Assembly (NCBI GenBank): GCA_949358305.1
Contig: OX442314.1
Coordinates: 496,001 to 560,000, forward strand
Direction: 5' to 3'
Origin: Strigamia acuminata
Taxonomy: Eukaryota
Length of the DNA: 64,000 bases
Made by a program: the position numbers and the translations under genes. The notes beneath the pieces were generated by a model. That model was given only the letters and a program-made list of their open reading frames with translations. It was not told the origin of the DNA and searched no databases. Below are positions 12,601 through 37,500 of the stretch, piece after piece. Every line of letters starts with the position of its first letter. Position 1 is the stretch's first letter.

Positions 12601-13291
12601 TTTTCTGAATGATTTTATTGAGAAAAATTCATTTTCTCACTGATTTTGTTTTGAAAAATTCATTTTCTCACTGATTTTATTTAAAAAAATTCATTTTTTC
12701 AACGATTTTAGTGAAAAAAATTTATTTTCTCAACACTTTATTGAGAAAAATTCATTTTTTCAACGATTTTATTGAGAAAAATTTATTTTTTTAATGATTT
12801 TATTGAGAAAAATTCATTTTTTCAACGATTTTATTGAGAAAAATTACTAATTTAAAGTGTTATCGTTTGACAGCTGGTCGTTGGAGCATGATTTGGCCGG
12901 GCTGGCGAAAAACGAACAACAATTCTGCCGAGCAAGATTTACTATCGATGGTGATCAAAGAAACCAAAGTGGTCGAAAAGGGCGACATTGCACCCGATTT
13001 CGCCGGAAACTTGGAAAATCACATGGAAAATCACGACGCCATGTCAGATCATTCACCCACCGCCACTGGTAACCCAAAAAAATCAATTTAAAAATATTTC
13101 TTTAAATTTAAAATTGTTTTTTTTAAATTTTTTTTGTTTTAGAAATGGACACGCGACTAGATTTCGTGTTGCGAGAAGGAAACATGGATTCGTTCGGATA
13201 TTTGGCCGCTTTTACCGCGCACACTTGTTACTGGTCCAATTACGACGTGGCGTATTTTATTCTCAATTACTTGCATCCCGGAATGGATTGA
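6671..13291 (+). CDS. DDHD1: DDHD1-type intracellular phospholipase A1 (PA-PLA1), 12 coding exons
   Basis: Exons 6671-7232, 7696-7860, 8121-8249, 8314-8452, 9140-9255, 9314-9420, 9476-9655, 11593-11712, 11778-11924, 11987-12182, 12874-13068, 13143-13291, all GT-AG and in frame. Motifs EEVRWFY, VRGGLYE, HLIFVIHGIGQK, FFPVEWRS, MDIMYYTSP, lipase AHSLG, VENFFCLGSPLAVFLALRG, DPVAYRLEPL, AHTCYWSNYDVA. Confidence 0.95.
7265..7632 (+). repeat. Intronic minisatellite (~32-bp unit GAGAAAATGAATTTTTCTCAATAAAAT(T/C)AGT)
   Basis: Tandem array in DDHD1 intron 1. The reverse complement of the same family lies at 12560-12845. Confidence 0.9.
9843..11430. repeat. 1.6-kb intronic satellite of two alternating ~20-21-bp monomers
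   Basis: Monomers AAAAATGCACAATTTC(A/G)CTCA and AAAAATGTGTATTT(T/C)CACTTA in a recurring higher-order order, in DDHD1 intron 7. Confidence 0.97.
12560..12845 (-). repeat. Inverted copy of the DDHD1 intron-1 minisatellite, in intron 10
   Basis: ATTTTATTGAGAAAAATTCATTTTCTCACTG is the reverse complement of the 7265-7632 unit. Confidence 0.85.
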
Positions 13292-14267
13292 AGCGAACGT
13301 TGACCGGATAATAATTTAATTTTTGTTTTTCCCGAGCAAATTAAGGAGTGGCGCTTACTTAATTTATTCCTCTGTAAAAAGATGTTTGTTTAGATGTTTT
13401 ATTCGACGGTTTTTATTATTATTTCTCTTTTTCTCTCCGCGTAATTTATTTCTGTGCCAACTCAGGAATTGCAAACAAAATATCAGTATTATATCAGTGC
13501 AACACGTGACCAACCCGACGTGTCCTTGCCCATTTTCTATGACAAATTGTATACTTTATTTTGTACTATATTTTTTCGTTTTTCTTTTTTAAATATTCTT
13601 ATAAAATTTTCAGTTTGTTTCGTTTTTTTTATGTTTTTTTTTTGTTTTGTTATTTACGATCAACCTGAGAGTTGTGACAATATACTCGCTCAATGTGCCT
13701 TATTTTGTCCTTGATTTGAATGTTTTTTCGGTGTATGAAAATGTCTCGAGTTGTTTGTATTAGCTTGAAAAGCGAATTATGAAAATTATCCAATTTTTAA
13801 TCAACTGCCAATATTGCGCTTCCATCCCTCGACGGTTTTCTTTAATGTCTTGGCAGAATACGAAAATAAATTTCGAGGTACGTTTTTGATGTCGCCATGA
13901 CAACTGTTGATTTATACGAAATAAAGAGAATAATTAAATGTTTTCAATTTTTTCGTTTTTATTTCACTTCTTTACGAAACGTTACAAAATGGCGGATGGA
14001 TTGTTCGTTTTGGGTTCCGGTTTCTGACACTCGATCGAGTGGCGCTGCTGCTGGGTATCTCTAAAATTTTGAATTTGTCATGTACAAACGTGTTTTTATT
14101 GACCGGATCGGATCGTTCTATGGGATTGAATTGATAATGAAATGAATGTCCGAATTCGGTATCCGAAATATCTCGTCGTGTATTTAATTTTTAGTAAAGT
14201 TTGAAGTTTTATTTCAAAGTTTTATTCAAATAGAACACAAACGTTGCCTGAAAAAACGGTACGAACG

Positions 14268-15933: not shown

Positions 15934-16559
15934 CAAGAGAATTTGTCGTGCCATATTGTGCGCCATTTTAACGGCCAGGTCCAAATTCGCGGCGAACGAA
16001 ACATCGGCGCCTCGTGACATCACTAGAGCATTTGTAGAGTGGAGCGGACACTTCCAGCACTTAATAATGCCCCATTTATCAAACCGAATCAATCTCCGTC
16101 GCTCGTCTCGCCCGAAACCATCGATTAACGAGTCGAGTTTGTTGACGTTAATACTCGAGTCGCCCGCATCGTTCGCGTGGCGCGCGCTGCGGTGCGGTGC
16201 GGGCGAGCCACCTTCGGGCGGAGCTTTGAGCATTCCTCCAGTCGCGCTGCGGACGAGTCCATGCGGCGGGCGCGGGTGTGATTCGCCCGCGCAGGCGCCA
16301 AGTCGGCCGCCAGACGAACGGAGCCGCCGCGCGATAATAAGAGCGCGCCAGATGCCGCGCGCGCGCGCCACTGCAACGCACGATCGCCATCTTAGGAGTG
16401 AGCGCCATTGCGCACGTGTTTCGTCGGTGCGACGCTTTCGTGATGAACGCGATTTGTGGCTGCAACTCGAATAGACGCCGGGAATAGACGCCTCTTCTCT
16501 AGAAGAGCCGCATCTTCATCTCTCCATCTCTTGGTCGCCCCCAATCGTCGCAGTCGGTG

Positions 16560-19500
16560 ATGGAGACGCGAGCGGGCGCGTTCTGGTTCGGTTGCACGTT
16601 TGTGGCGTTGCTGGTCGGTGGTGGAAGCGCGTTCGACTGTGATTTCGAGGCGGAGTGTCGGTGGCTCGTTGGCGGCCAACTCGGACGAGTGAGTGCGTCG
16701 AATTTGACCGGTGGGGGTGCCGGTGGGGGAGCCAATGGGGGACTTTCGATGGACTCGACTGGCAATGCTCAAGGTAAGTTTTCTTTGTCGCGCTGTTTTT
16801 GTTTTAAGACGTTTTGCTCGTTGCTCACGTAATGTGTGTTTTTATCATTTTTCGTGTTTTTGGACGAGTTTGGTGGATCTGATCTCATGGGATTTGATGT
16901 GCTTTCTCCAGATTTTGCTGTAATTGAACAAATTTTGGTGTTTGACTAGATTTGAGTGTTTTTGATTGTATTTTGGTGATTTTGACCAGATTTTGGTGAT
17001 TATGACCCATTTTGGTGATTTTTGACTAAATTCTCATGATTTTCCCCAAATTTTGGTGTGTTTGACCAGATTTTGGTGAATTTTGGCTAAATTCTCGTTT
17101 TTCACCCAATTTTGGTGTGTTTGACCAGATTTTGGTGATTTTTGACTAAATTCTCATGTTTTTCACCAAAGTTGGTGTTTTATGGCTAAACTTTTTTTAT
17201 TTTGATTAAATGTTTGGTCCTATTAATCAAGTTTTGCAATTTGATGACATTTTGTGTTTTGTGACTAGATTTACGTGTTTTTGACCAGGTTTTGGTGTTT
17301 TGTGACTAGATTTACGTGTTTTATAACTAGATTTACGTGTTTTTGACTAGATTTTAATGTTTTGTGACTAGATTTTAATGTTGTATAACTAAAGATTTAC
17401 ATGTTTTTGACTAGATTTATGTGGTTTTGATTATATTTTGGCATCTTTTTTTATACAAGATTTGTCTTTTTGAAGAGAATTCTTGTTTTCTTGTTTTCTG
17501 ATCAGATTTTGGTGTTTTGTAACGAGGTTTTTGTTATTCGTGCTGATTCGTGTGTTTCTGTGTGTCTCTTTTTGATTATCGGATGATTGATTGTGCTTGG
17601 CGTGACATTGGCACGCTCGGGCGGGCGTGAAGGGTCAAAGGTCAAGTCTCGCGAATGCCATTTGACCGCTGCAACTGTGTGGAGACCGGAGACCCTTGGG
17701 AAGGAACGGGGAAAAGGACGCGTTTATTGTGCTTTGCTTGATGAGCAAACGTCCCAGGTGGCTTCTCGCAGTCCATTTGGCAGCGAGCCAACACCATTTT
17801 CTGTTATTTTAAACGTCTTTTTTAAGTTTTTCGTGAAAAATGACACCCCGCGACCGCAATCGTTTGATTTATTCCATTTTACGCTCCATTTTACGCCATT
17901 TACTACGTTTTTGATGTTTCGGTCGCGACTGAACTCGAAACCGATTCTAAAATAATAAATTCGATTTATTTATTGTAATTTTTCCTTTTTTTTTTAAGGA
18001 AAAAATTATGAAATTCGTATTTGGTGATTTACGGCTGATTTTTGGTCCGTCGGCCATGTTGGAAATTAAAAAACGATTCGGGACGACGAAGCGCAATAAT
18101 TTAATCTATTTGCAGCTCTAAAAGTCGTTAAATTCCTTTAAATTATACGTTTTTCCCTCTAAAATATTTTAATCTATTGTGCAACGACGTCATTCACTTC
18201 TTACGTCATTCGTGTAACAACTAACGACACAGTAGTTGCGAATTTTCGCCACCATGACGAAGACGATCGCGAGTCGTAACAAGTTGTGTTTATTATGTTA
18301 TTATCGCAGTTTTCGTGGGCGCGCGAATGTTTCCGTTGCAAAATTGAAATTCCGCAACGTCAATTGAAGTCAAACGTCGGAAATTTCGCGATGATTGACA
18401 ATTCAATCGCCGGAGAAAAGCGTAGAGCGATTTTACGTTCCGCCGTGCGATCAATAACGCCAGGCTTTAAGTGTTCATCACTGTCTCCCGGGCCTTGCTC
18501 GCTGCGGCTTTTTTCCCTTCTTTTATACACCGTTATCGATAAAATGTCTTTTTATCTCACGATTTTTATTCGTTTTTTACATTTTTATTTCGCGAATTAA
18601 ATTCTTCCTTGACCTTGAAATACTGCCCACGAAAGAGCGTCGTATACTCAACTGATCGATCAGTTAAAAGAAGGCCTAACAATATGCGCGACATCTGGTG
18701 TTAGAAATATTTGAAATTAAAATTTATTTTTTGGAATAAATCGAGTGAATAAAATTGTCAAAATAAATAATTTTGGATTATTTATTTATTTATTTATTGT
18801 AGGTCATTTTCTTTATTTGCCCGGGTCGAAAAGCGCCACCACTCGGCAGATTAACATAACAAGTCCGGTCGTGCATTCGAGCGACCGGACGTGTCGTTTG
18901 ATTTTTTACGAACATTCGGTCGGAGTTCCGGTCGACGCCATCAAAGTCGTGGTGGTAGAAACGGACAAGTTGAGCACAATCATCGGCGATAAATACGCGC
19001 ACGGCACCAACAGGTTTGTTAGGTTTCGTTTAATCATTCCTGCATTGTTCCACGTCTTCCATTTCCGGTTGACGTCACACCGAGGCTTTATCTCGGCCGT
19101 ATCTGAATTAAAAACGTTTTTTTTCTTTAAATTTAAACTTTAATTTGATTATTATCGACGTTCTTGCAATTCGAATCGATAAGTTTCGGTTGACCACAAG
19201 GAAAAGGAGGCACGAGATTTGAGCAAGCGGTGCACGTGCGCCGAGGGGTGCGACATTTGACCGAATCTCTGACAATGGCTTCCGAATCTCGCCCGAATCT
19301 TTCCGAATCCCGCCCGAATCTTTTCGAATCCCGCCCGAATCTTTCCGAATCCCACCGAATCTTCGAATCTCGAATCTTTAAATTGTATACAAATCGAGGA
19401 AAATAAAGTCAAAATTTATGATAAAAAAATGTAATAATATTTTTACAAAAAACTGGAATAACCAAGGGAATAACTGACAACTGTAAATAAATCGAGAAAT

Positions 19501-22500
19501 AAATGTTCCACATTGAAATTGTCGGAAATTGTCGTTGAAATTGTCCGTATCGGAGGAAATTATACCTGCGCACCTCGCTGCGCGGTATCTGCGCATGCGC
19601 ATTTATGATTTAGCGCGAACTTCAAATTAATCCCGGAATTCAACATTGTTCGCAATTGTGATTGAGTTGGATTGCGTGCTATTTTACCTCGTATTTTACT
19701 TTATCCTATTAAAGGTAAGACTTTTGCGGATTATTATTTTCTCATTGATTATTTTTATGATGCTTTTCGTTCCAACTACAGGTTCCTCTGGCAAGTTCCA
19801 TTCATACGACCATACGAAAATTGTTACGAAAGTCGACGATTTTTTTAGCGCTACGGTGAAATTCGAGTCAAACTTGAATTGAAATTGAATTGAAATTGAA
19901 TAATTAGTACGGTAACAGATTATGAACTAAGTGCGCGTTAATTTGATATTTCGGAAAAGCTATTTCTATTGATATCGGTTGAAATATACGTATGGCGACG
20001 TATGGGCTATTTCGGGCTATTTTCACCGATTTTGGTTGAAATGATCGCCAAATTCCTACTAAAAAAAATGTTCCTTATTCCACAAGAAAATATATTATTC
20101 GTTTTTTTTATTCTAATGAAAAAAAAATCTGATTTGATTTACTACTAACTTGTAAGTTATTAATTTAAAGGAAAATGAAACTCTTTAAAATTTGTAATTA
20201 GCAAAATAAGATCTTTTTTTTTTGTTTTTTTTTATTAAATTTGAGTATGGATTATAAATAAAACAAAATAAATAAAATATATTACCTGATTCTTTTTTTA
20301 TATTCCATACACAAATGTAATGGAATCGAATGGAATAATGAACAAATTTTTTTATAATTTACCTTACTTTTACTTATATTGGCCAATGATAGAGGTGTCT
20401 CGCAAAGATATTATCGAGGATATTATTCATTTTTTCGACCAAAAATTCATTTTTTGGACGAAAAATTCATTTTTTGAACGAAAAATTCATTTTTAGGTTA
20501 AAAAAAATTCATTTTTTTGACAAAAAATTTATTTTTTGGACGAAAAATTTATTTTTTGGACCAAAAATTCATTTTTATGTTAAAAAAATTCATTTTTAGG
20601 TTAAAAAAAATTGTTATTTACACCCAAAAAATGAGCCGGCAATAACTTCGCAATGCGTCTGCAAAAGGGCGGTTTTTTGATCCGCTTTCCGGCTACAATT
20701 ACGTCGTTTTAGGCCCGCAAAAATAGCAGCTTTACTAATAAATAATGTTTTGCTTCAGATTTCTTTTTCTGTGGGAAGGATGTCGGATGGAACGGTTTGG
20801 CAATTCGCAACAGAGAATGATATTTCGCCACAGATCCAAGCCTGCTTGAAAGCTGCAGGATATTTCACATTAACTGGAATTTCAAAAATTGAAAGCAATG
20901 AATTGATTGAAAAATATCTGCAGGATACAGCTGATCTATACGAAGATGAGAAAGAGCTGAAAGCGATTTATGGAAAATTCCATAAAAAGCCCGAGAAATT
21001 TCGTTTTGCACCTGGACAACATGAAGAAATAACACGATTTAAAGATATCTGTCGAAGGAAAATCGATGACAACGAGAAAACCGTGGTGAAAACACATAAG
21101 CGGCTGAGACTGTCAGACAAAGCTAATGATTCTTGTGGTCAGAAGTTTTGCAACTATGGAACTGAAAAAAGCACCACATCAAACACCAATACGTCAGAAA
21201 CCGACACTCATGAATCCATAATTTACACTGATGTGAAATTAAAAATGAGAAAATGGCTTGCAAAACAGACTGATCCAGCGCTAAAGAGTTTAAAACACGA
21301 AAAAGATTTTAAATTTACCGTATCCTCCAGCGAATCAAGCAGTGACAATATATTTGAACATTATGAAGTTGTGGTGTTGTGTTTGATGTGTAATGGGAAA
21401 ATACGATTGCACATCAGAGATAAACACTTTACTGTTTTCAATGCAACAAGACATCTAGAAAAGTGCGCTAAAAGGTGTAAATTTGGAAACATGACCCAAA
21501 AAAGTTTGCCATTATATTTCCGTGCAACAGGAGAGAAGAATGGGGAAGAAATAACCCACAACGATGATAATGATAATGACCAGTTTAATTATGTTACAGA
21601 AAATAATGACAATGTAAGCTTATGTACGAATGAAATGCAATTAGATCTTGAGTTGGGTGCAAATCAAGATATTGTAACAACCACGCCAATAGGTAATGAA
21701 TAAATAAATTGTTTTATGCCTTTTACAAATGATAACAAATTTTTATAAAATTGCAGAAATGTACTCCAGAGCTTATTACAGAAAAGAAAAAAGCAAAAAG
21801 GAATTGTTACAATCAAGTGCGATGTGCCAAAAGATTACCAATTTTTACAACCCTCTTGATGAAATTCGACACTTGTTAATTGAAAACAAAAATTTAAACA
21901 ACTTTATAACGCATTTGCTGCAGCAGCAAAGTACGGCAGTTACTGAAGACCACTCAAGCCTGGAACACACTGTTGAATCCACGGTTAAACCCAGCAATTT
22001 TTTGCAGCTAATGTGGGATGCAGCTATCTCAAATACCAAACGAAAACGAAATGAATACGACTCAGATTCGATAAAAGAATTTGCTATGTTGTTATTTATG
22101 TGGCTTGGACCATCGAAATACACAATTTTATATGCGAATTTAAATTCCGGTATACCAAGCAGTCGCCAGGTTGAAAGATACCTAAAAAAATTCCAAAACG
22201 ATATTACAGAGGGAAAACTAAGAATTGGTTATTTGAAGCAACATATGGAGAGGTACAACTGTACTAACAACACTGTTTGGTTAAGTGAGGATGCAACACG
22301 CCTAGTGCAATCAATCAACTATGATGGCGATAAAAATGCATGTGTTGGATTTGTCTCACCGATATCAGCAAGTGGATTGCCGGAAATTAATACGTTTCCA
22401 TTCACATCCATACCAGATGTCAAAGCTTACTTCAAAAATTATAATTTTGCTAATCAAGCATACGTTATTATGGCACAACCAATGTGTCCAAATGTTCCAG

Positions 22501-25500
22501 CCATTTGTTTTTGTTTATTTGGAAGTGATAATAAATTCACATCTACTAATGTTCTGAACCGATGGAAAACAACACTTGATGAGTGCAATGCAAATGATAT
22601 TGTGATCGCAGGTTTCAGCGCTGATGGTGATCCGAAATTATTAAGGAGTATGCAGTTATCAAGTGGTCTGTTTTGTGAACCAAAAACAGTCTTTCAAGAA
22701 AAAGAAGAGGATCCAAACAGGATTTCTTCAACTGAAAACAAATGGTTTATTATGAATGGAAACATAAAGTTTTCTCTCATTCAGGACACTATTCACATTG
22801 GGGCAAAGCTACGTTGTCGTTTGCTTAAGAAAAATCGTTTACCAATTGGACACCGTTTTATATGCATTTCACATTTACAGCATATAGTGGAAAATAATTC
22901 AAAGGATTCACATCCATTAAGACTTTCTGATCTTGATTGCCGAGACAAGATGAACTATGCAGCTGTCGAGCGAATGGTGTCCAAAAATGTTCTTGAATTA
23001 ATTGAAAAAAAAGAAGAATTTAGAGGAACATTATTGTATCTAAAAGTGATGAAATTTGTGTTGGATTGTTTTTTAGCAGACGACTTGTCTCCTCTCAAAC
23101 GAATAGAGAAAATTTGGACTGCGATTTTCATCTTACGAGGATGGAGATTCTGGTTAAAAAACTGTACCACTTGCAAGCAACTGGACAGTTTTATAACTAC
23201 CAATGCGTATCAGTGCATCGAATTAAATGGCCACAGTTTAATACGTGTTATTGAAACTTGCAGAGAAAATTCATTGCCATTTTTACCACAATTACTTGGA
23301 TCGCAACAATGTGAACAACTCTTTCGTATTGCCAGAAGTTACTCTGTTGTGAATTCAACAATTGTTAATTTCAGTCTCAGTGAGTTGATAAAAAAAATTT
23401 ATCGAATTGAATCCGAATTAGCTGTCAGAGCTTCTGCCAATTCGAATAACATTCTAAAGATGCCAAAATTAAAAAAATATTCATCTAAGATGGGTGAAAT
23501 GCCTTCGACATTCCAAAATGTTAGCTGTCCAACAAAGAATGAAATAATCATAGACGGTATTTCTAAGGCACAACGAAAAGCTGTGCTATTATTGCACAGT
23601 GTGGGGATCGGCTTTTTATATCCAAACAACATATTCAATGATAATTTACTTGTTAAGGATGTCATTGTCAGATCTGACCATTTAAGTCAAAATGAAGAGG
23701 ATGTTAGATTCGGTGGAATAAAGTTCACAACTCACATACTAGATGAATAAACAAGTATAATGTTCCAAACTAATATCAAATTACACAGGTTGAGTACACA
23801 CGCATTACAGCTTCATCGTATCAGTATAACAATTCCCATCATTCCTAGCAACAACAAAAGATAATCTCAAACAAGGTATAATTAAATAACAAACTCTCTA
23901 ACAAATCCCCCTCTTGATATTATAATTGTACACTCATTAAAAATAAAAACATCACTTATAAATTATTCAAATATCATTGTTCATTAAAATGTCCATCACT
24001 TCTTTAATTTTCACTCCGGATAAATTCTTGGTTAGGAAATCTGCTAGTTGTTCTTCTCCGGGGACATGCACTGCTTCCAATCCTTCATTCTTGATTAAAT
24101 CCTTGGCCAAATTTACCCTTCGATTCAAAAATTTCGTCCGCATCTTGTGCGTGCCTTCTGTCATCATTGTTATTACATTCAAGCTATCGCAATAAATTTT
24201 TCCTTTTCCTTGTAATTCGTTCTTGCTTATATCTTCAATTAAATTCCTGTACCACATTGATTCTTTGACACCCTCCGTGAATGCTTCCAATTCACTTTCT
24301 GTGGTTGATTGTGCCACAAAACTCTGTTTCTTTGATTTCCAGTGAATCAAATCCTTTCCGTACAGAATTAAAACTCCCGAATACGATTTGCTGTCTGGGG
24401 TTTTGTCCCAACTTGCGTCTGTAAAAACTTCCAATTCTTTTCCTTCACTTCCGTACGTCAAACCGTATTCAGCTGTCCCTTTAAGGTAACGAATTACTCT
24501 TTTCAATCCATCCTCGTGGATTTGTCTTGGTTCCTGATTATATCTCGATAAGTTTCCCAAAGTAAAGCTTATATCTGGCCTGGTATGTGTCGCCAAATAT
24601 AATAGTCTTCCTAATAGCTCTTGATACGCTTTCGCATCCACTTTTTCACTTTCTGCGCATTCGTCGATATTCTGGTTCGGTTCACCTGGGGATTTTGCTG
24701 GATTACACTTGTCCATGTTGTACATCTTCAGCAAGTTTTGTAGGTAAGCTTGTTGGTGCACTACAATTCTTCCTTCCAGCTGGTCTAATTGCATTCCCAG
24801 TACGACCTTCGCATCTCCAATAGTGACTAAATTTACCGCTTTTCGCAACTTTTCCAAAATTTTGTTTTCATATGTTATGTCGCTAGCAACTGTTAACATG
24901 TCGTCTACGTGTAGCCCTATTATCATATATTCCACTTCTACAAATATATAATATAAGCATTCGTCATCTTTGGATTGTTGTAATCCGGTCGACTTCAGTA
25001 TTTTGTCAATTAGCTCATTCCAAGTTCGTCCACTTTGTTTCAGTCCATATATGCTTCGTATCAAAAAGCAAACTTCATCTTCTCTTCCTTTTTCCTTGAA
25101 TCCATCGGGTTGTTCCATCCATATTTTTTCCTTCAATTTCGCGTTCAAATACGCTGTTTTTACATCGTGTAATCGCACACGTTTCCCACGCTTTGCTGCA
25201 AATGCAAATATAAATCTCACTGATTCAATTCTAATCACTGGCGAGTATGTTTCTTCTACATCAACTCCATAAGTTTGAGCACATCCATTAGCAACCAATC
25301 TCGCTCTGTATCTTCCCTCTGTTCCATCTTCATTTGGTTTGACTTTGTAAATCCATTTGCATTTTATCGTTTTTCTTGCTTTCTCTCTTTTTTCCAATTT
25401 CCATACACCCAATCTCTTCATTTCCATCATTTCTTCTCCCATTGCCTCGATCCATTTGTCTTTTTGATCACTGTTCATTGCCTCCTTGTATGTCTTTGGT

Positions 25501-28500
25501 ATTTGAATTTCGTGTGTTGTCAATACAAATCCCTTTTCTTTTATTCTTTCAGATCTTCTTACTCCTTGTTTTTTCAATGCTTCTTCTTTTTTATTCTTTT
25601 CAATTTCGTGTTTTCTCTGCATTTCTTCCTTGGTTGTTCCTTTTGGTCTTCCTCTTTTTCCTTTTTCGTGATTCTCATTGTTTGTTGTATTCTGCTCATC
25701 ATCATTTGGCATCATGACGTTTCCTTCGTTTTCATGTTCTGCATTTTGAATCTCTGTGTTTTCTTCCTGAATTTCTTCCTCGTTTTCAGATGACACTATT
25801 CTATCCCCGTTGCTCCCTTCTTCTAGATCGGGTTCCTTTTGTTCATTAATGACCTCTTTTTCATCTGTTGACAAATCGATGGTTTCTTCGTCTTCCTCCT
25901 CCGAGCTGTCGTCCACTCTTGGTGTGTTTGTCTCAGCAATTTCTCCTTTGTTTTTCCATTTATGCATTCCCTTTGTGGTCTCATCAAATTTGACATCTGA
26001 TGTTTCATGAACTTTGTTCTTTTTAAAATCATATATGCGGTAGGCTTTCCTGTTTGTCGCATATCCAATAAAAATTCCCACACTGCATTTGTCTTCCAAC
26101 TTTTTTCTGTGTCCTTTTCGTAACATGTACGCCGTGCATCCAAATTTTTTGAAATATGCCACGCTTGGCTTGTAGTCTGACCACACTTCTTCCGGCGTCA
26201 ATCCGTGTATTTTGGTTACACAATGATTTCGAATTTTCATCGCTGTAAGTGCCGCCTCGCCCCAAAAATATTTCGGCAATTCTGAGTCCTTTAGTAAACA
26301 CCGGATCATTTCCATTATTGTCCTGTTTTGTCTTTCAACGATGCCATTGCTCTCGGGCGTGAACGCTGTCGTCAATTGGTGATGTATGCCTCTCTCATTT
26401 AACCAATGTTCAAAACCGTCCGACGTAAATTCTCCCCCGTTGTCAGATCTCAGAAATTTCACTTTCTTTTCTTTCTGTCTCTCCCATTTTTCAATTTGCG
26501 TTTTTATGGCTTCTTCTGCTCCATTTTTCCTTTCTAACAGCGAAATGTTGATTTTTCTGGAAAAATCATCGACCATTATCATAATGTATTTTTTCCCAGT
26601 TGGGGTTTTAGGTTTGAGCGGCCCCATCAAGTCCACGTGAATCAATTCAAGCACCGTTTTTGACTGTCTATCTGTGATTGTCTTGTGCGTTTTTCTTGTC
26701 AGTTTGCTGGTGATGCAGACGTCACATATTTGCCCTTCTTCTCTGTCCTTGCACTCTATCCCCCTCACGATATTTTTCGTCTTCATCTCGCTAATTGCGC
26801 CGAAATTTACGTGTCCCATCCTTTGGTGCCATGTTTTAATTTTTTCATGGGCTATCAGTCCTCTCTCTCTTGGCATCAGTTGGGTTTTTATCACGTATCT
26901 GTCTCCAATCCTTTCTCCAAACATTGCGTATTTGTTGCATGTCATCTTCATTTCATTTTCGTGAGCAATTCGAACTTTTTCCTTGTCGTACACAACAATA
27001 AATCCTTTATCCGTCATTTTCGGCACTGACAACAGATTTTCTGTAATATTTGGTATATACAGAACATTTGTTAATAAAGTCTCAATTTTTCCCTCGTCTT
27101 GACTGACTCTGATGTCTCCAATGGCTTCCGTGTTTGTTACTCCCGACGCTGTTTCTATTTCTCTGCAGTCATCTCGTGCATTCATCAACCAGTCTCGTTC
27201 TCGTGTAATGTGGCTAGTCGCGCCAGAGTCGGATGTCCATTCAATCTGTTGTTCATTCGTTTCGGTCTCTGTTGTTTTTTCTCTCACCATCAAGGTTCTT
27301 TCCATTTTCGTCCCATTTTTATTTTTTTCACAGTGGTACACCTTGATTTTTCGTCCGGTTGACACGAGTGATTTGCGCGGAATTAATTCTCCATCTCTGT
27401 CTCGTTTGAATTCCGTTTTCCATATTTTCTCTTCTATTTCATCGCAAATGTGCTCCGTTTTTATTTCTCTCGCGGTCATTAGGTTTTCTTTTGGTCCTTT
27501 TCCTTTCCCGCGATGTCCACTCGTTCCACGTCCTCTCCCACGACCTCTGCTGGCATTGTTTTCTGTTTTCTTTTCGTCTCTGCAATCTGCGCTCATATGA
27601 CCCATTCGCCCACAATTGTAGCATTTTGGTCTGCTTCTACAGTCCTTTTTATAATGCCCTTTGCCTGAGCAATTATAACACACGATGTTTTTGAATTCTC
27701 TTGCTTTGTGAACATTTTCTGTGGGTTTTCTTTCATTGTTTTGTTTCTCTCCCTCACACAGTTTCAGTCCACTTCTCAAATCGGCCATTTTTATGTCTGT
27801 TTGAAAATTCAGCGCTTCTCTGGCATTCTGGAACTCTCTCCTCAGTCCGTTTTTTATATGAAAAATCAATTCGGTTTCTTCCATCTTTCCTCCAGCCTGC
27901 AAAAAACACTGCCTGAGTCCCTGTGCTCTGTTGCAATACTCGTCAATGTTCTCATTTTTCTCCATTTTGATGTGGGTCACCTCGTGATGCGCTTCCAGTT
28001 TTGTTCTCTCTGCGGTGCTTTGCATGTCTGTTTTTATTTGTTCCCACAAAGTTTTTGCATTCCGTTCATGCATGTAAATCATTTGTTTTGACTCACACAT
28101 GTTATCAATCATTATCATTTTTGCTTTGGCATTCATATCATCATATGCATTCCACTTCTTGTCAGCATCATCTCCTTTCACCTGACTTTGAGGTGGTTCA
28201 TCCTCTAATATCACACTTTTCCATAATTTTTTGCCTCTTAATCTGTCCTCCAATCTGCACGCCCACAAAGCATAGTTGCTGTCGGTGAGAGCGGGAATTC
28301 CTCCTCTATTGTCGTTTGGTGGCGCCATCTTGTGTTCGGAATCGCTACTATCACTGCTTTCACTTAACGTACTGTTTTGTGTGTTTCTGCTTTCACTGCT
28401 GTCCGTGTTTTCTTCTTCACTACTTTCGGTGCTTTCTTCTTCACTGCTTGGTAGTTTGATATTCTCCTCTCCTATTCCTTGTTGTTTCCAAAAATTCATT

Positions 28501-31500
28501 CACACGCTGCTCGTTGCACTGATTGGTTTCGGTTTTCGTATCGCTGCTCAAAATGTTTTTCTATTCACTTCTCAGTGCTAAGAACACTAACCGGCCTCTG
28601 CTACCATGTTAGATTCGGTGGAATAAAGTTCACAACTCACATACAAGATGAATAAACAAGTATAATGTTCCAAACTAATATCAAATTACACAGGTTGAGT
28701 ACACACGCATTACAGCTTCATCGTATCAGTATAACAATTCCCATCATTCCTAGCAACAACAAAAGATAATCTCAAACAAGGTATAATTAAATAACAAACT
28801 CTCTAACAGAGGAAGAATCCGAAACCAACATTGAACCAAATGAAAAAGTAACTCCGATATTAGATGAAGATGAGGAAACACAGGCAAATTTAGAAGTTAT
28901 GACACGAAATAATTTAACTAGAAAATTAAAAAAAGTGAAAATAAATGGACTGTCATGCTTTGTATATGCTGACCAAGAAGAACCATTTTCATTTGATGAT
29001 ATTCCAATTGAAAGTCTGTACGTGCCGTATATGATCAAACAAAAAAATGTTTTAATTCGAAAAACAACAGCTCTTAGACTTATCCATGAAAGAGGATTCT
29101 TGTCATCAGATAGACAATTACGTGTACAAGGAAAATTTTGATTGTAAATTTTAATATTTCAATAGTCTCAAATAAAACTAAATAAATGTTCATTTTATTA
29201 AATGTCTCAAATAAAATGAAAAAATATCTCCCACTTTACTAAATTTATTTGAAAAAAATCCGAAAAAATCATATGAATCTTTCTGAATCCCATCCGAATC
29301 CCATCCGAATCCCACCGAATCCTACCGAATCCCGCCGAATCCCTTCCGAATCTCCCCGAATCCCATCCGAATCCCCCGAATCTTTCCGAATCTTTCCGAA
29401 TCCCATCCGGATCTTTCCGAATCCCCCGAATCTTTCCGAATCTTTCCGAATCCCATCCGAATCTTTCCGAATCCCATCCGAATCTTTCGAATCCCAAAAA
29501 AGATTCGAATCTCTGACAAGCAGATTCTGATTGTCGCCCCCCTCGGTTTGATCTTCGTTGTCGTTGCTAGGTAACGAGAGAATCAAAAGACTAGAGCGCA
29601 CGTCGAGGGGGGCGACAATCAGAATCTGCTTGTCAGAGATTCGAATCTTTTTTGGGATTCGAAAGATTCGGATGGGATTCGGAAAGATTCGGATGGGATT
29701 CGGAAAGATTCGGAAAGATTCGGGGGATTCGGAAAGATCCGGATGGGATTCGGAAAGATTCGGAAAGATTCGGGGGATTCGGATGGGATTCGGGGAGATT
29801 CGGAAGGGATTCGGCGGGATTCGGTAGGATTCGGTGGGATTCGGATGGGATTCGGATGGGATTCAGAAAGATTCATATGATTTTTTCGGATTTTTTTCAA
29901 ATAAATTTAGTAAAGTGGGAGATATTTTTTCATTTTATTTGAGACATTTAATAAAATGAACATTTATTTAGTTTTATTTGAGACTATTGAAATATTAAAA
30001 TTTACAATCAAAATTTTCCTTGTACACGTAATTGTCTATCTGATGACAAGAATCCTCTTTCATGGATAAGTCTAAGAGCTGTTGTTTTTCGAATTAAAAC
30101 ATTTTTTTGTTTGATCATATACGGCACGTACAGACTTTCAATTGGAATATCATCAAATGAAAATGGTTCTTCTTGGTCAGCATATACAAAGCATGACAGT
30201 CCATTTATTTTCACTTTTTTTAATTTTCTAGTTAAATTATTTCGTGTCATAACTTCTAAATTTGCCTGTGTTTCCTCATCTTCATCTAATATCGGAGTTA
30301 CTTTTTCATTTGGTTCAATGTTGGTTTCGGATTCTTCCTCTTCATTTTGACTTAAATGGTCAGATCTGACAATGACATCCTTAACAAGTAAATTATCATT
30401 GAATATGTTGTTTGGATATAAAAAGCCGATCCCCACACTGTGCAATAATAGCACAGCTTTTCGTTGTGCCTTAGAAATACCGTCTATGATTATTTCATTC
30501 TTTGTTGGACAGCTAACATTTTGGAATGTCGAAGGCATTTCACCCATCTTAGATGAATATTTTTTTAATTTTGGCATCTTTAGAATGTTATTCGAATTGG
30601 CAGAAGCTCTGACAGCTAATTCGGATTCAATTCGATAAATTTTTTTTATCAACTCACTGAGACTGAAATTAACAATTGTTGAATTCACAACAGAGTAACT
30701 TCTGGCAATACGAAAGAGTTGTTCACATTGTTGCGATCCAAGTAATTGTGGTAAAAATGGCAATGAATTTTCTCTGCAAGTTTCAATAACACGTATTAAA
30801 CTGTGGCCATTTAATTCGATGCACTGATACGCATTGGTAGTTATAAAACTGTCCAGTTGCTTGCAAGTGGTACAGTTTTTTAACCAGAATCTCCATCCTC
30901 GTAAGATGAAAATCGCAGTCCAAATTTTCTCTATTCGTTTGAGAGGAGACAAGTCGTCTGCTAAAAAACAATCCAACACAAATTTCATCACTTTTAGATA
31001 CAATAATGTTCCTCTAAATTCTTCTTTTTTTTCAATTAATTCAAGAACATTTTTGGACACCATTCGCTCGACAGCTGCATAGTTCATCTTGTCTCGGCAA
31101 TCAAGATCAGAAAGTCTTAATGGATGTGAATCCTTTGAATTATTTTCCACTATATGCTGTAAATGTGAAATGCATATAAAACGGTGTCCAATTGGTAAAC
31201 GATTTTTCTTAAGCAAACGACAACGTAGCTTTGCCCCAATGTGAATAGTGTCCTGAATGAGAGAAAACTTTATGTTTCCATTCATAATAAACCATTTGTT
31301 TTCAGTTGAAGAAATCCTGTTTGGATCCTCTTCTTTTTCTTGAAAGACTGTTTTTGGTTCACAAAACAGACCACTTGATAACTGCATACTCCTTAATAAT
31401 TTCGGATCACCATCAGCGCTGAAACCTGCGATCACAATATCATTTGCATTGCACTCATCAAGTGTTGTTTTCCATCGGTTCAGAACATTAGTAGATGTGA

Positions 31501-34500
31501 ATTTATTATCACTTCCAAATAAACAAAAACAAATGGCTGGAACATTTGGACACATTGGTTGTGCCATAATAACGTATGCTTGATTAGCAAAATTATAATT
31601 TTTGAAGTAAGCTTTGACATCTGGTATGGATGTGAATGGAAACGTATTAATTTCCGGCAATCCACTTGCTGATATCGGTGAGACAAATCCAACACATGCA
31701 TTTTTATCGCCATCATAGTTGATTGATTGCACTAGGCGTGTTGCATCCTCACTTAACCAAACAGTGTTGTTAGTACAGTTGTACCTCTCCATATGTTGCT
31801 TCAAATAACCAATTCTTAGTTTTCCCTCTGTAATATCGTTTTGGAATTTTTTTAGGTATCTTTCAACCTGGCGACTGCTTGGTATACCGGAATTTAAATT
31901 CGCATATAAAATTGTGTATTTCGATGGTCCAAGCCACATAAATAACAACATAGCAAATTCTTTTATCGAATCTGAGTCGTATTCATTTCGTTTTCGTTTG
32001 GTATTTGAGATAGCTGCATCCCACATTAGCTGCAAAAAATTGCTGGGTTTAACCGTGGATTCAACAGTGTGTTCCAGGCTTGAGTGGTCTTCAGTAACTG
32101 CCGTACTTTGCTGCTGCAGCAAATGCGTTATAAAGTTGTTTAAATTTTTGTTTTCAATTAACAAGTGTCGAATTTCATCAAGAGGGTTGTAAAAATTGGT
32201 AATCTTTTGGCACATCGCACTTGATTGTAACAATTCCTTTTTGCTTTTTTCTTTTCTGTAATAAGCTCTGGAGTACATTTCTGCAATTTTATAAAAATTT
32301 GTTATCATTTGTAAAAGGCATAAAACAATTTATTTATTCATTACCTATTGGCGTGGTTGTTACAATATCTTGATTTGCACCCAACTCAAGATCTAATTGC
32401 ATTTCATTCGTACATAAGCTTACATTGTCATTATTTTCTGTAACATAATTAAACTGGTCATTATCATTATCATCGTTGTGGGTTATTTCTTCCCCATTCT
32501 TCTCTCCTGTTGCACGGAAATATAATGGCAAACTTTTTTGGGTCATGTTTCCAAATTTACACCTTTTAGCGCACTTTTCTAGATGTCTTGTTGCATTGAA
32601 AACAGTAAAGTGTTTATCTCTGATGTGCAATCGTATTTTCCCATTACACATCAAACACAACACCACAACTTCATAATGTTCAAATATATTGTCACTGCTT
32701 GATTCGCTGGAGGATACGGTAAATTTAAAATCTTTTTCGTGTTTTAAACTCTTTAGCGCTGGATCAGTCTGTTTTGCAAGCCATTTTCTCATTTTTAATT
32801 TCACATCAGTGTAAATTATGGATTCATGAGTGTCGGTTTCTGACGTATTGGTGTTTGATGTGGTGCTTTTTTCAGTTCCATAGTTGCAAAACTTCTGACC
32901 ACAAGAATCATTAGCTTTGTCTGACAGTCTCAGCCGCTTATGTGTTTTCACCACGGTTTTCTCGTTGTCATCGATTTTCCTTCGACAGATATCTTTAAAT
33001 CGTGTTATTTCTTCATGTTGTCCAGGTGCAAAACGAAATTTCTCGGGCTTTTTATGGAATTTTCCATAAATCGCTTTCAGCTCTTTCTCATCTTCGTATA
33101 GATCAGCTGTATCCTGCAGATATTTTTCAATCAATTCATTGCTTTCAATTTTTGAAATTCCAGTTAATGTGAAATATCCTGCAGCTTTCAAGCAGGCTTG
33201 GATCTGTGGCGAAATATCATTCTCTGTTGCGAATTGCCAAACCGTTCCATCCGACATCCTTCCCACAGAAAAAGAAATCTGAAGCAAAACATTATTTATT
33301 AGTAAAGCTGCTATTTTTGCGGGCCTAAAACGACGTAATTGTAGCCGGAAAGCGGATCAAAAAACCGCCCTTTTGCAGACGCATTGCGAAGTTATTGCCG
33401 GCTCATTTTTTGGGTGTAAATAACAATTTTTTTTAACCTAAAAATGAATTTTTTTAACATAAAAATGAATTTTTGGTCCAAAAAATAAATTTTTCGTCCA
33501 AAAAATAAATTTTTTGTCAAAAAAATGAATTTTTTTTAACCTAAAAATGAATTTTTCGTTCAAAAAATGAATTTTTCGTCCAAAAAATGAATTTTTGGTC
33601 GAAAAAATGAATAATATCCTCGATAATATCTTTGCGAGACACCTCTATCATTGGCCAATATAAGTAAAAGTAAGGTAAATTATAAAAAAATTTGTTCATT
33701 ATTCCATTCGATTCCATTACATTTGTGTATGGAATATAAAAAAAGAATCAGGTAATATATTTTATTTATTTTGTTTTATTTATAATCCATACTCAAATTT
33801 AATAAAAAAAAACAAAAAAAAAAGATCTTATTTTGCTAATTACAAATTTTAAAGAGTTTCATTTTCCTTTAAATTAATAACTTACAAGTTAGTAGTAAAT
33901 CAAATCAGATTTTTTTTTCATTAGAATAAAAAAAACGAATAATATATTTTCTTGTGGAATAAGGAACATTTTTTTTAGTAGGAATTTGGCGATCATTTCA
34001 ACCAAAATCGGTGAAAATAGCCCGAAATAGCCCATACGTCGCCATACGTATATTTCAACCGATATCAATAGAAATAGCTTTTCCGAAATATCAAATTAAC
34101 GCGCACTTAGTTCATAATCTGTTACCGTACTAATTATTCAATTTCAATTCAATTTCAATTCAAGTTTGACTCGAATTTCACCGTAGCGCTAAAAAAATCG
34201 TCGACTTTCGTAACAATTTTCGTATGGTCGTATGAATGGAACTTGCCAGAGGAACCTGTAGTTGGAACGAAAAGCATCATAAAAATAATCAATGAGAAAA
34301 TAATAATCCGCAAAAGTCTTACCTTTAATAGGATAAAGTAAAATACGAGGTAAAATAGCACGCAATCCAACTCAATCACAATTGCGAACAATGTTGAATT
34401 CCGGGATTAATTTGAAGTTCGCGCTAAATCATAAATGCGCATGCGCAGATACCGCGCAGCGAGGTGCGCAGGTATAATTTCCTCCGATACGGACAATTTC

Positions 34501-37500
34501 AACGACAATTTCCGACAATTTCAATGTGGAACATTTATTTCTCGATTTATTTACAGTTGTCAGTTATTCCCTTGGTTATTCCAGTTTTTTGTAAAAATAT
34601 TATTACATTTTTTTATCATAAATTTTGACTTTATTTTCCTCGATTTGTATACAATTTAAAGATTCGAGATTCGAAGATTCGGTGGGATTCGGAAAGATTC
34701 GGGCGGGATTCGAAAAGATTCGGGCGGGATTCGGAAAGATTCGGGCGAGATTCGGAAGCCATTGTCAGAGATTCGGTCAAATGTCGCACCCCTCGGATCA
34801 AACTCTCTCTAATCGATTCTTATTCCGAGCCAATTTGCCAAAAAAATCTCAAACTATAAGTCGGAGAATCTAAAATTAACGCACCCGGTTTCTAATTTTA
34901 AGATTTCGACTGATTTATGGTTCGGATTTCGTTTTTTTTAAAATTCTAGTTCAGTTGTGAATAGTTTTTTTTAACGAGTTGACAACTCAACTGGATTAGG
35001 AGATTCTCCGGCACCGCGCAGGCGCTAAAAAGTATATAAAAATGATGTAATCTAATCGTAGCCAATAAGATGGGATTATTTTGAAAGGTTACCCAGATCA
35101 GATCGTCTATTTTTTATCGGTCGAGAATCGAGATCAACAATGGACGGGAATTTGATTTTTGTAGGTGGGAGAAAGTCGATCAACGGCTGGGCGAAAGAAA
35201 TTCACCTTTCCAGGTCGTCATCGAGTTTGAACCGGGAGACGAAAACTCGCATCTGGCGATCGACGATGTTCGTCTGGAAAATTGTTTCCCCGGTAAAAAT
35301 AACCGACATTCATCATTTTCTTTTCAATTTTTTTAAATTTTGACTTTTTTAAATTCTTTTTTTAAAAGATACGTTGCCAAGTCCTGGCTCGTGCGATCTG
35401 CGCCACCATTTTGACTGCGGCGAGAAATGCATCGAGCGCAGCCATGTTTGTGACCTGCACGTGGACTGTGCGAGAGGAGAGGACGAAACTCAGGAATGTG
35501 GTGAGTTGGAATTGAGGAATACATTTTATATATTTTTTATTTCTGCATCGATTATTGTGTAGAGAAAATTCCCCACCACGCCAAGTGTAATTTCGAGGCG
35601 GACGACGACACAATGTGCGGCTGGAGTAACGATCAAACGGATCATTTGGATTGGATTCGACACCAGGGGTCGTTGGAGAAACGGGGCCCGCCGCACGACC
35701 ACACTTATAAAAATTCATCAGGTGGGAGATTAATTGACCTAATTGTGTGGACTTTGTCAAAATGTAGCCCCCAAATCTCATCTCATGTCCAGGATGAATA
35801 ATTCTTAATTATGTTGGAATTTGGGCCTGAAATTTGAGTTTTCTTAATTTTCTGAAGATTATTACTAAAATGTGGGTAAATTTATAGAACTTTAGGCCAA
35901 TTTCCTACGTTTTGGACATTTAGAAATGCTTTTTATGCTTGTTTAAGTTCTGTTCTTATTGAAAAAACTTGGTAAAAACGGGGTAATACTGCGGTATCGT
36001 ATTACCCGGCTTATTGCCGCATGCCGTTGGTCATGGGTTTATGTTTATGACCGTTTTCAAATTGCGCCAAAGAAGTCTATACTGGCATGCCGGTATAGAG
36101 CGAAACATGCCGGTACAAGTGACAAAACTGGTTTTGTTTTTTTTGTTTAAAAGAGCCCAGATGATAAATTATGTTAAAATTTGGGCCTGAAATTTAAGTT
36201 TTCTTGATATTCTGAAGATTCTGAAGATAAAATGCACTTTTTAGAGTTAAAAATGCACTTTTTAGAGTTAAAAATGCACTTTTTAGAGTTAAAAATGCAC
36301 TTTTTAGAGTTAAAAATGCACTTTTTAGAGTTAAAAATGCACTTTTTAGAGTTAAAAATGCACTTTTTAGAGTTAAAAATGCACTTTTTAGAGTTAAAAA
36401 TGCACTTTTTAGAGTTAAAAATGCCCTTTTTGGAACAAAATTTGACCATTTGAAAAGAAATATAACTTTTTCGACGTAAAAACAAATCGGCAACGTGGAA
36501 TTATGTGGTCGGATTTAAGGAGCATTAATTGTATCATTACGAAATCTAAAGGAATATTTTAAACTGAGTATTCCGAAGTTGTTAACCACTCTGTTTGTTT
36601 GAACAGGTCATTTTTTATATTTGAACATGAAGCAAAGTCACGCCGGTTTTGGTTCGAATGCCACCCTGAATAGCGCTTCGTTCCCACCTCCGCCCAAATA
36701 TCACGGACAAATCCATTCCCCTTTCTTCAACTCCTGTCAGGTAAGAGAGAGAGAAGGGAAATTGCACATTTTCCATCTGAGCGTCTGCAATTTGCTTTTC
36801 TTTTAACATCCCTTAGGTCCGGTTTGCGTATTTCATGTTCGGCATGACTTCTGGCGCTTTGGCATTAAATTGCATCGAAAAACCGCCCAGGAGGGACGAA
36901 AAAGCGACAATATTGTGGCGAAAAGCCGGCAAACAGAAGGATGATTGGATTAGGGCCACGGTGCCTCTGCCAAAACTGCTCTACAGGTGAGTGAAAGAAA
37001 ACTCGAAACGAAAGAGAATATTTGTCTATACTCCGAACCGATGTAACGTTGTCCTATTTCACTGGTGTAGTGGCACAAAAAAGTAGCCCGAAACACTAGA
37101 ATCGTAATCGAACTCCAGACATTGTGATCGATTACCAACACTTGTTTCATTGTCGAAGGTGATGCTTAAGCCTGCTATTTTTGCGGACTTAAAACAGTGA
37201 AATTGCGGTTGGAAAGCGGCATTAAAAAACGGCATTTTGCGGACTTATTGCGGGCTTATCCGGCAAATTTTTGACCAAAATTTTAAGGTTTTAAACAAAA
37301 TTTGAAGTTTTTAAAGGAAATTTAAAGTTTTTAAAGAAAATTTGAAGTTTTTAAACAAAATTTGAAGTTTTTAAACATAATTTAAAGTTTTTAAACATAA
37401 TTTGAAGTTTTTAAACATAATTTGAAGTTTTTAAACAAAATTTGAAGATTTTAAACAAAATTTGAAGTTTTTAAATGAAATTATTACGTAATACGGTATC

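What the first reader, a model, noticed from the sequence alone, without database searches (positions are those of the whole stretch)
29604..34795. Intact, probably active P-superfamily transposon with an atypical, THAP-less transposase
Seen: a 64-nt phase-1 intron fuses the 317-aa and 766-aa ORFs into ~1061 aa. The core has P-like D (SEDAT), D (SADGD), DxxH (QDTIH) and E (SQQCEQLF). The N-terminus lacks the C2CH THAP pattern; it has a helical domain (..LKAAGY...FRFAPGQH..) and a CxxC...HxxxC finger (CLMC...RHLEKC) more like a BED finger. TIRs are only 14 bp and start CG, unlike the CA of canonical P elements; TSD is 8 bp. Inference: a divergent, poorly described P-like lineage with a different DNA-binding module, young enough to be a candidate for an active transposase.
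Basis: partly seen in the sequence, partly recalled or inferred. Interest (0 to 1): 0.8.

Follow-up and report, generated by a model that had tools for sequence, protein, structure and literature searches.

The report
THAP-less P-type transposon, inverted twin copies
This is an intact jumping gene with an identical inverted twin beside it; its enzyme is predicted to fold like the fruit-fly P-element transposase but lacks the usual THAP DNA-binding part, and it likely represents a large, apparently undescribed animal branch of P-type transposons that has moved recently.

Summary
Real, and richer than reported. 29604-34795 is a 5,192-bp element (TIR 13/14, tips CGAGGGG) with a stop-free 1,061-aa spliced frame. 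The core model matches Drosophila P transposase best (Z 25.3; Transib 13.1). No THAP was found in it or in 62 relatives scanned. The N-terminus is a helical, weakly SAM/HhH-like domain plus a C2H(C/H) finger, and sits on one chain with the core in intronless relatives.

A 100%-identical inverted twin (19242-29545, split by a copia) lies 58 bp away and the two 8-bp TSDs are exchanged. That pattern fits hybrid-element insertion or recombination; an assembly flip is not excluded. A public run holds the empty site and deletion derivatives, so movement is recent.

The family is large (2,030 clusters at E<=1e-30; named members are all arthropod and uncharacterised or mislabelled). It shares C[G/A]AGGG tips, 8-bp TSDs and ~10-bp subterminal arrays pointing the same way at both ends. 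No description turned up in nine paper searches. Repbase/Dfam, splicing and activity are untested. The scan earlier noted a THAP-less fungal P element on other DNA. Verdict: new variant of the P kind.

The parts
29604..34795 (-). Copy B: full-length intact element, 5,192 bp
34782..34795 (-). 5' TIR (tip CGAGGGG), 13/14 match to the other end
29604..29617 (+). 3' TIR (tip CGAGGGG)
34665..34776 (+). 5' subterminal array, ~10-11-bp units (11 CGAATC cores, all on the sense strand)
29653..29874 (+). 3' subterminal array, ~10-bp units (20 cores on the sense strand, 1 reverse): same direction as the 5' array, not inverted
33429..33612 (.). AT-rich 20-bp tandem array upstream of the gene; role unknown
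32345..33257 (-). Transposase exon 1 (ATG at 33257; 304 codons plus one base)
32943..33236 (-). N-terminal helical domain (aa 8-105), weakly SAM/HhH-like, family-wide
32550..32840 (-). Alpha/beta domain (aa 140-236) with C201, C204, H225, C229 putative zinc site
32281..32344 (-). Predicted 64-nt phase-1 intron (GT..AG, 19% GC); no RNA evidence
30008..32280 (-). Transposase exon 2: HTH region, RNase H core with helical insertion, C-terminal tail; D483, D594, D648/H651, E824
19242..29545 (+). Copy A: inverted twin, 5192/5192 identical to B once the copia and one copy of its TSD are set aside; exon 2 interrupted by the copia
23702..28808 (-). Copia LTR retrotransposon inside copy A (1,510-aa ORF, 202-bp LTRs with 1 mismatch, 5-bp TSD GAGGA)
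29546..29603 (-). 58-bp spacer, inverted relative to the empty allele; begins and ends with the reverse complements of the two TSDs
19234..19241 (+). TSD 1 (ACGTGCGC); partner is its reverse complement at 29596-29603
34796..34803 (+). TSD 2 (GATCAAAC); partner is its reverse complement at 29546-29553
19014..35164 (+). Host intron of a MAM/LDL-receptor-A domain gene; now 16,151 bp, 639 bp in the empty allele

Best explanation
The 5,192-bp element is an intact transposon with an identical inverted twin, and likely a recently mobile cut-and-paste member of a large THAP-less branch of the P superfamily, whose predicted 1,061-aa enzyme would cut and join DNA with a P-type DDE core and make 8-bp target duplications. 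Shown: termini, open frame, conserved D/D/DxxH/E, exchanged 8-bp duplications, an empty-site contig, deletion derivatives, and the same end anatomy in distant relatives. Predicted: the P-like fold of HTH, RNase H and helical insertion. Inferred: splicing; that the N-terminal module (helical SAM/HhH-like domain, with a zinc finger in some sub-groups) takes the job of THAP plus coiled coil by loading several subunits on the ~10-bp (one helical turn) subterminal arrays; that the same-direction arrays make the two ends non-equivalent, as P ends are; and that the core recognises the short C[G/A]AGGG tip, whose 3'-terminal G is the same base as in P. The twin arrangement most simply arose in one step by hybrid-element insertion: one end from each sister chromatid inserted 42 bp beyond the first TSD, inverting the spacer (about 45%). 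Local hop followed by recombination is about 40% and an assembly flip about 15%. The copia most simply inserted into copy A afterwards, leaving B as the intact copy.
For: Fold: exon-2 model (pLDDT 83) best matches 6p5a, Foldseek E 4.4e-11 against 3.2e-5 for the next family; VIA Z 25.3, 395 of 442 residues, rmsd 4.4, against Transib 13.1, RAG 11.1, Hermes 8.4. Pfam P-HTH PF12017 in 5 of 32, 3 of 30 and L008; above cut-off in P0003, P0242 and L008. ESM Atlas: all ten best hits with a family share a family or clan, and the listed rows are P-type. Exon fusion: L008 holds module plus core in one intronless 1,588-aa frame; 10 of 18 new relatives with a long N-terminus carry helical domain and finger on the core's chain; exon 1 scores 57.6 bits on a profile of those 10 alone, best of 500 shuffles 9.4. 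TSD: perfect 8 bp in L004, L005, L007, 7/8 in L028. Recent movement: twin 5192/5192 identical; a contig in run X2 joins 19241 to 29595 on opposite strands with 8 shared bases, i.e. the empty site with one TSD copy, depth 234 against 288 for the unique flank; three joints that skip internal parts with 5-, 8- and 19-nt filler, and a loose end at a tip into another flank in each run. End anatomy: 15 of 20 inward CGAGGGG in 41 loci are followed by an array, 1 of 5 outward; arrays point the same way at both ends in 4 of 4 distinct elements with both ends in hand. HEI gives exchanged TSDs with identical copies (PMC2775673, passages).
Against: No sequence-level match to the solved P transposase: phmmer and profile searches of PDB found none at E<=10, and the window protein reaches PF21787 only at E 0.13. 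Identity in the structural match is 13%. No tree with canonical P, Galileo or 1360 proteins could be built, so the branch's position is not shown. The SAM/HhH likeness is weak (Z 5.4, within the range the tool calls common) and no Pfam SAM family passes. 62 of 66 measurable relatives with the helical domain have no room for the finger before the core, so the finger is not the universal binder. L008 has both tips but no matching TSD. Identity of the twins does not favour HEI strongly, because the family is homogeneous (2 of 17 listed variant sites lie in the element). The empty-site joint is listed for X2 only, and both runs are one study. The copia LTRs differ at 1 of 202 sites while the presumably older twins differ at 0 of 5,192.
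Confidence: 0.78

Rival explanations
1. The group is already catalogued (for example as P families in Repbase/Dfam) and this is simply one more member.
For: The family is very large (2,030 representatives at E<=1e-30, 7,162 at E<=1e-3) and occurs in well-studied insects. THAP-less P elements are implied in fungi: P is reported from Pucciniales and Allomyces (PMC5751038, passages) while THAP is restricted to animals (PMC7776569, passages).
Against: No named relative is called a transposase: 9 named among 120 listed and the named members are 'uncharacterized' or 'hypothetical', one mislabelled BOP1-like. Nine paper searches returned no description in their listings. PMC3698922 lists only P, 1360 and Galileo.
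Confidence: 0.4
2. The lineage is a separate superfamily, sister to P, with its own chemistry (possibly no GTP requirement).
For: No sequence match to 6p5a even with a 118-sequence profile. Own N-terminal module, tips and arrays. The slot of the GTP-contacting D528 (three residues before the catalytic E531 in PMC7776569) is Q in 118 of 118 rows.
Against: Relatives pass the curated cut-off of the P HTH model and touch PF21787 down to E 5e-4. The insertion domain superposes on P's. 8-bp TSD and 3'-terminal G are as in P. Repbase merges groups that converge in iterated searches (PMC4455052, passages).
Confidence: 0.2
3. The twin arrangement came from a local hop in opposite orientation 58 bp away, followed by recombination between the two inverted copies, not from one hybrid-element event.
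For: Gives the same exchanged TSDs (PMC2775673, PMC3698922, passages). P elements hop locally (PMC7776569, passages). A homogeneous family leaves no chimeric trace.
Against: Needs two events instead of one. No intermediate allele is seen, although short-read contigs could not show its orientation.
Confidence: 0.4
4. The TSD exchange is an assembly artefact: the inner segment was flipped between the two identical 4.45-kb arms, and the real locus has two ordinary insertions with direct TSDs.
For: Flipping the inner segment restores direct TSDs for both copies (follows). No contig spans the structure.
Against: An assembly that separates two identical 4.45-kb arms and a nested copia probably rests on long reads, which would fix the orientation (inference). 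The element, its TSD length and the empty site do not depend on this point.
Confidence: 0.15

Closest known systems
Drosophila P element and transposase (PDB 6P5A/6PE2; PMC7776569, passages read)
   Same: HTH, split RNase H and helical insertion fold (Z 25.3); D, D, DxxH, E order; 8-bp TSD; 3'-terminal G; internally deleted derivatives; non-equivalent ends; intron-containing gene.
   Different: No THAP or evident leucine zipper; helical SAM/HhH-like domain plus C2H(C/H) finger instead; 14-bp TIR starting CG against 31-bp; long ~10-bp arrays in direct orientation against single 10-bp sites and 11-bp inverted repeats; D1-D2 spacing 111 against 73; D528 slot is Q; 13% identity; 5.2 kb against 2.9 kb.
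Zebrafish Pdre2 / THAP9 (PMC10983969, passages read)
   Same: Short TIR (13 bp), 8-bp TSD, P-type core.
   Different: Pdre2 starts CATAC, has THAP and 12-bp inverted subterminal repeats, and keeps the GTP-contact residues.
Galileo and BuT5/P of Drosophila buzzatii (PMC2775673, PMC3698922, passages read)
   Same: P-superfamily elements found as inverted pairs with exchanged TSDs at inversion breakpoints.
   Different: Those elements have THAP transposases; the Galileo copies are chimeric, with 7-bp TSDs and long TIRs. Here the inversion is only 58 bp and the copies are identical.
Fungal P elements (PMC5751038, passages read)
   Same: Classed as P in a kingdom that lacks THAP (PMC7776569), so THAP-less P cores are not unprecedented.
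   Different: Not compared directly. The group here has named members only in arthropods and its own N-terminal module and termini.
Transib/RAG1 and hAT (Hermes)
   Same: RNase H core with helical insertion (Z 13.1, 11.1, 8.4); hAT also makes 8-bp TSDs (recalled).
   Different: Much weaker structural match than P; Transib makes 5-bp TSDs with CAC tips (recalled); no hAT Pfam family in 62 relatives scanned.

Membership tests
P superfamily (wide sense) | RNase H DDE core with D(2)H motif, closest to P transposase | tested here: met
   motif definition in PMC3698922 passages
P superfamily (wide sense) | P-type HTH before the core | tested here: met
   model residues 75-559 align to 6p5a 130-566; PF12017 above cut-off in P0003, L008, P0242; the window protein itself has no PF12017 hit
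P superfamily (wide sense) | Helical insertion domain of the P type | tested here: met
   395 of 442 residues of 6p5a superpose; no PF21788 sequence hit in the window or in 62 relatives
P superfamily (wide sense) | TIRs and 7-8-bp TSD | tested here: met
   8-bp duplications against the empty site; direct 8-bp TSDs in L004, L005, L007
P superfamily (wide sense) | Phylogenetic grouping with known P transposases | not testable with these tools
   no canonical P protein sequence was returned by any search; trees hold family members only
P superfamily (wide sense) | GTP dependence and 17-nt staggered cleavage | not testable with these tools
   biochemical; only the D528 slot could be mapped from published numbering (Q in 118/118)
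Named animal P-type families (P, Galileo, THAP9) | N-terminal THAP (C2CH) domain | tested here: not met
   no PF05485 in exon 1 at E<=1, in 32 relatives at E<=0.1 or 30 relatives at E<=0.01; ligand order is C2H(C/H); no THAP-like frame in the 1.4 kb upstream of the ATG
Named animal P-type families (P, Galileo, THAP9) | CA...TG termini (general rule recalled; Pdre2 CATAC in PMC10983969) | tested here: not met
   CG...CG in the window; CAAGGGG at one end of L003, L025, L028
BED zinc finger | C2H[H/C] finger with the BED profile and fold | tested here: inconclusive
   ligand order fits; zf-BED only E 0.055 in 1 of 42 rows
SAM domain | Five-helix SAM fold | tested here: inconclusive
   top rows for model residues 2-110 are SAM and HhH domains, CNK SAM Z 5.4 (77 aligned, rmsd 2.8), SLy1 SAM 5.1, NusA AR2 4.8; below the tool's level for a clear match
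Transib / hAT | Core closest to Transib/RAG or Hermes | tested here: not met
   Z 13.1 and 8.4 against 25.3 for P
Existing Repbase/Dfam family | Match to a catalogued consensus | not testable with these tools
   neither library is available

The most novel reading that the evidence does not exclude
An unnamed, widespread animal sister group of P elements, possibly deserving its own subgroup or superfamily, that replaced THAP with a SAM-like module which polymerises along helically phased, same-direction subterminal arrays, and whose insertion domain may no longer need GTP (invariant Q at the D528 slot). This copy would be a ready, intact, recently active enzyme for testing it and has left a fresh one-step hybrid-element inversion.
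Probability: 0.25. Interest if true: 0.82.

Novelty: new variant of a known kind. Interest (0 to 1): 0.6.

Why it matters
P transposase is the only transposase known to use GTP and relies on THAP to find its ends (PMC7776569). A large natural branch with the same core fold, a different front end, different end architecture and a changed GTP-contact position makes two questions directly testable: how general GTP use is among P-type enzymes, and how DNA-binding modules are swapped together with their binding sites. An intact, recently mobile copy is also a candidate new gene-transfer tool. The family escapes Pfam in most members, so many 'uncharacterized' arthropod genes are probably these transposases, and the CRAGGG tip with 8-bp TSD offers a way to classify their non-coding derivatives.

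Tried and rejected
Direct TSD at 29604-34795: rejected. Alternative acceptors at 32266 and 32251: frame-compatible but remove part or all of the YSR motif; a strict pattern found that motif in only 5 of 13 relatives with room for it, more by eye, so this support is moderate. Hidden THAP exon upstream of the ATG: none seen in three frames; an acceptor-like site just before the ATG suggests a 5' intron. RNA check: no RNA holder listed; no evidence either way. Single-sequence search of exon 1 against longer proteins: nothing at E<=1. PDB sequence searches: no P match; N-terminal profile only weak rows, including two SAM-domain entries at E 0.8-1. Fold search of the N-terminal model: Foldseek nothing at E<=0.001; VIA top 50 list no THAP or BED entry, which does not exclude them. 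Homodimer prediction of the helical domain: no answer, score 0.00, alignment not used. Viral contigs: 4 pattern hits, none a relative. Prokaryote genomes: one degraded hit, L041, in an archaeal bin, probably a mis-binned eukaryotic contig (inference). Trees: the window protein is a long branch with no well-supported sister; P0001 and L024 dropped out for short coverage, L004/5/7 were left out as near-duplicates. Contig depth ratios (element about 1,000 against flank 50.6 in X1; 3,200-3,960 against 287.6 in X2) hint at roughly 10-20 copies, but the tool warns that depth is no copy number. No whole genome was held. PMC8195603, PMC3579696 and PMC5718144 (passage searches) held nothing relevant; the Kojima 2019 review was not held. 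No supplementary files were read; supplements of the cited papers could list members of this group.
Full report
Observation. The element spans 29604-34795 (5,192 bp). Both tips read CGAGGGG and the TIR matches at 13 of 14 bases. On the minus strand two frames are joined by a GT..AG intron at 32344-32281 into 1,061 codons from ATG 33257 with a single terminal stop. The intron is 19% GC against 35-36% in the exons. It is one of 21 frame-restoring pairs, and no RNA run was listed to test it. The claimed TSD does not flank these coordinates: the left 8-mer is GCGCACGT and the right GATCAAAC.

The locus. A second copy lies inverted at 19242-29545, split by a copia element (23702-28808; 202-bp LTRs, 1 mismatch; 5-bp TSD). 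Without the copia it is 5192/5192 identical to the reported copy. The flanking 8-mers are exchanged: 19234-19241 is the reverse complement of 29596-29603, and 29546-29553 of 34796-34803 (chance about 4e-6 and 2e-5). Inverting the 58-bp spacer gives each copy a direct 8-bp TSD. A contig of run X2 joins 19241 to 29595 on opposite strands with 8 shared bases and 42 bases on the short side, which is the predicted empty site, at depth 234 against 288 for the unique flank. The joint is not listed for X1, and both runs are one study. The whole structure sits in one intron (19014-35164; 639 bp when empty) of a MAM/LDL-receptor-A gene. The runs also show three joints that skip internal parts of the element with 5-, 8- and 19-nt filler, one loose end at a tip into another flank in each run among the rows shown, and few variant sites in the element (2 of 17 listed). 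Together these point to a young, homogeneous, recently mobile family; current activity is not shown.

The enzyme. The window protein has no significant Pfam or PDB sequence hit (profile). It has 147 relatives at E<=1e-3 in the word-based search, 120 listed: best 55% (Strigamia), the rest 29-40%. A profile of 118 sequences (the window plus 117 of the 120) finds 2,030 representatives at E<=1e-30 and 7,162 at E<=1e-3 (the weak tail may include other P groups). Named members are beetles, thrips, mosquitoes, a sandfly, a wasp and a centipede, none named as a transposase; many more come from unnamed records. The exon-2 model (pLDDT 83) matches Drosophila P transposase best: Foldseek E 4.4e-11; Z 25.3 over 395 residues, against Transib 13.1, RAG1 11.1 and Hermes 8.4. 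The P HTH model PF12017 hits 5 of 32 and 3 of 30 relatives and L008, three of them above cut-off. D483, D594, D648/H651 and E824 are essentially invariant. The position three residues before the catalytic E, which is the GTP contact D528 in P (PMC7776569, passages), is Q in 118 of 118 rows. The other GTP contacts could not be mapped with confidence.

The N-terminus. No THAP was found in exon 1, upstream of it, or in 62 relatives scanned against Pfam. The exon-1 model (pLDDT 83) has two domains. Residues 2-110 form a helical bundle whose best matches are SAM and HhH domains at modest Z (CNK SAM 5.4). Residues 139-236 form an alpha/beta domain with C201, C204, H225 and C229; it is BED-like in ligand order only. 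The module is the family's own. L008 encodes it with the core, a Ulp1 protease and a PHD finger in one intronless frame. Ten of 18 new relatives with a long N-terminus carry both domains on the core's chain (one of the 18 is a spurious motif position), and exon 1 scores 57.6 bits on a profile of those 10 alone against at most 9.4 for 500 shuffles. The helical domain is found in 67 of 120 relatives (profile partly built from them), but in 62 of 66 measurable cases it lies 119-165 residues before the first catalytic D, with no room for the finger. These finger-less proteins fall on one side of a strongly supported branch. So the helical domain is the constant part and the finger is optional.

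The ends. Among 41 related loci, L004, L005 and L007 are 99.8%-identical copies of a 6.5-kb relative (31-34% protein identity to the window) with tips CGAGGGGTCCGACACA and perfect 8-bp TSDs. L028 has a 7/8 TSD; L008 has both tips but no matching TSD. Fifteen of 20 inward-facing CGAGGGG are followed by a short-period array, against 1 of 5 outward-facing (several rows are near-identical copies and one is a neighbour of a true tip). Variants CAAGGGG (L003, L025, L028) and CGAGGGA (L037-39) occur, so CG versus CA is not a sharp divide. The array unit differs by family while its period stays 8-12 bp, and in 4 of 4 distinct elements with both ends in hand it points the same way at both ends.

Mechanism. 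The best reading is P-like cut-and-paste transposition with 8-bp TSDs, and gap repair producing deletion derivatives. I infer that the N-terminal module loads cooperatively on the phased arrays in place of THAP and the coiled coil, and that same-direction arrays make the two ends unequal. Binding and oligomerisation are untested. For the twin, hybrid-element insertion from one site predicts exchanged TSDs with identical copies, and ectopic recombination predicts chimeric copies (PMC2775673, passages). Because the family is homogeneous the two cannot be told apart here. Short reads cannot fix the orientation either, since both copies face the spacer with the same end, so an assembly flip remains possible.

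Comparison and novelty. It works like a P element and meets the core, insertion-domain and TSD criteria of the superfamily, but fails the THAP test of the named animal families. THAP-less P elements are implied in fungi (PMC5751038 and PMC7776569, passages), and the scan noted one on other DNA. Short TIRs are known (PMC10983969, passages). Nine searches of open-licence PMC and bioRxiv (listings seen, passages read in PMC3698922, PMC3985635, PMC4455052, PMC10824691 and bioRxiv 2026.09.03.748810) gave no description of this group. Repbase, Dfam and subscription journals were out of reach, so prior cataloguing is quite possible. Verdict: a real, intact, recently mobile element of a large, apparently unnamed THAP-less branch of the P kind; new variant of a known kind; interest 0.6.

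Noticed in passing
window 23702-28808: Intact-looking copia (1,510-aa ORF) nested in copy A; multi-copy in both runs. Its LTRs differ at 1 of 202 sites although the presumably older P-type twins differ at none of 5,192; unexplained (RT error, sequencing error or conversion).
   Followed up: partly
window 20144-21876 (same as 32161-33893); 19681-29184; 34660-28928: Joints in run contigs that skip internal parts of the element with 5-, 8- and 19-nt filler: deletion derivatives, two of them only about 0.75-0.8 kb long (MITE-like).
   Followed up: partly
window about 16500-35800 (+): Host gene with MAM and LDL-receptor-A domains; one intron has grown from 639 bp to 16.2 kb through these insertions.
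   Followed up: partly
window 35800-36500: Very high-depth repeat ends near 35806 and 36167 (54-nt direct repeat) and a 21-bp tandem array at 36187-36480; probably another abundant small element.
   Followed up: no
window 341-1075, 9823-11449, 16912-17439: Long tandem-repeat tracts; the one at 341-1075 resembles the element's internal 20-bp array (73% over 176 nt).
   Followed up: no
window 6605-13311 (+): Gene with a WWE domain exon at 6605-7240 and downstream exons that look like a DDHD-type phospholipase (label recalled).
   Followed up: no
L008 1111-5877; L006 6881-10626; P0005, P0009, P0010: One sub-clade of the family carries a C-terminal Ulp1 protease and PHD finger; another (64 labelled rows) lacks the zinc finger.
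   Followed up: partly
L005 8962-13178; L004 4681-5664; L006 upstream of 4885: Young copies of the relative are themselves interrupted by other insertions of about 4.2 kb, 1 kb and unknown size.
   Followed up: no
L041: Degraded family member on a 778-kb contig filed in an archaeal genome bin; neighbouring frames look eukaryotic, so probably host contamination.
   Followed up: partly
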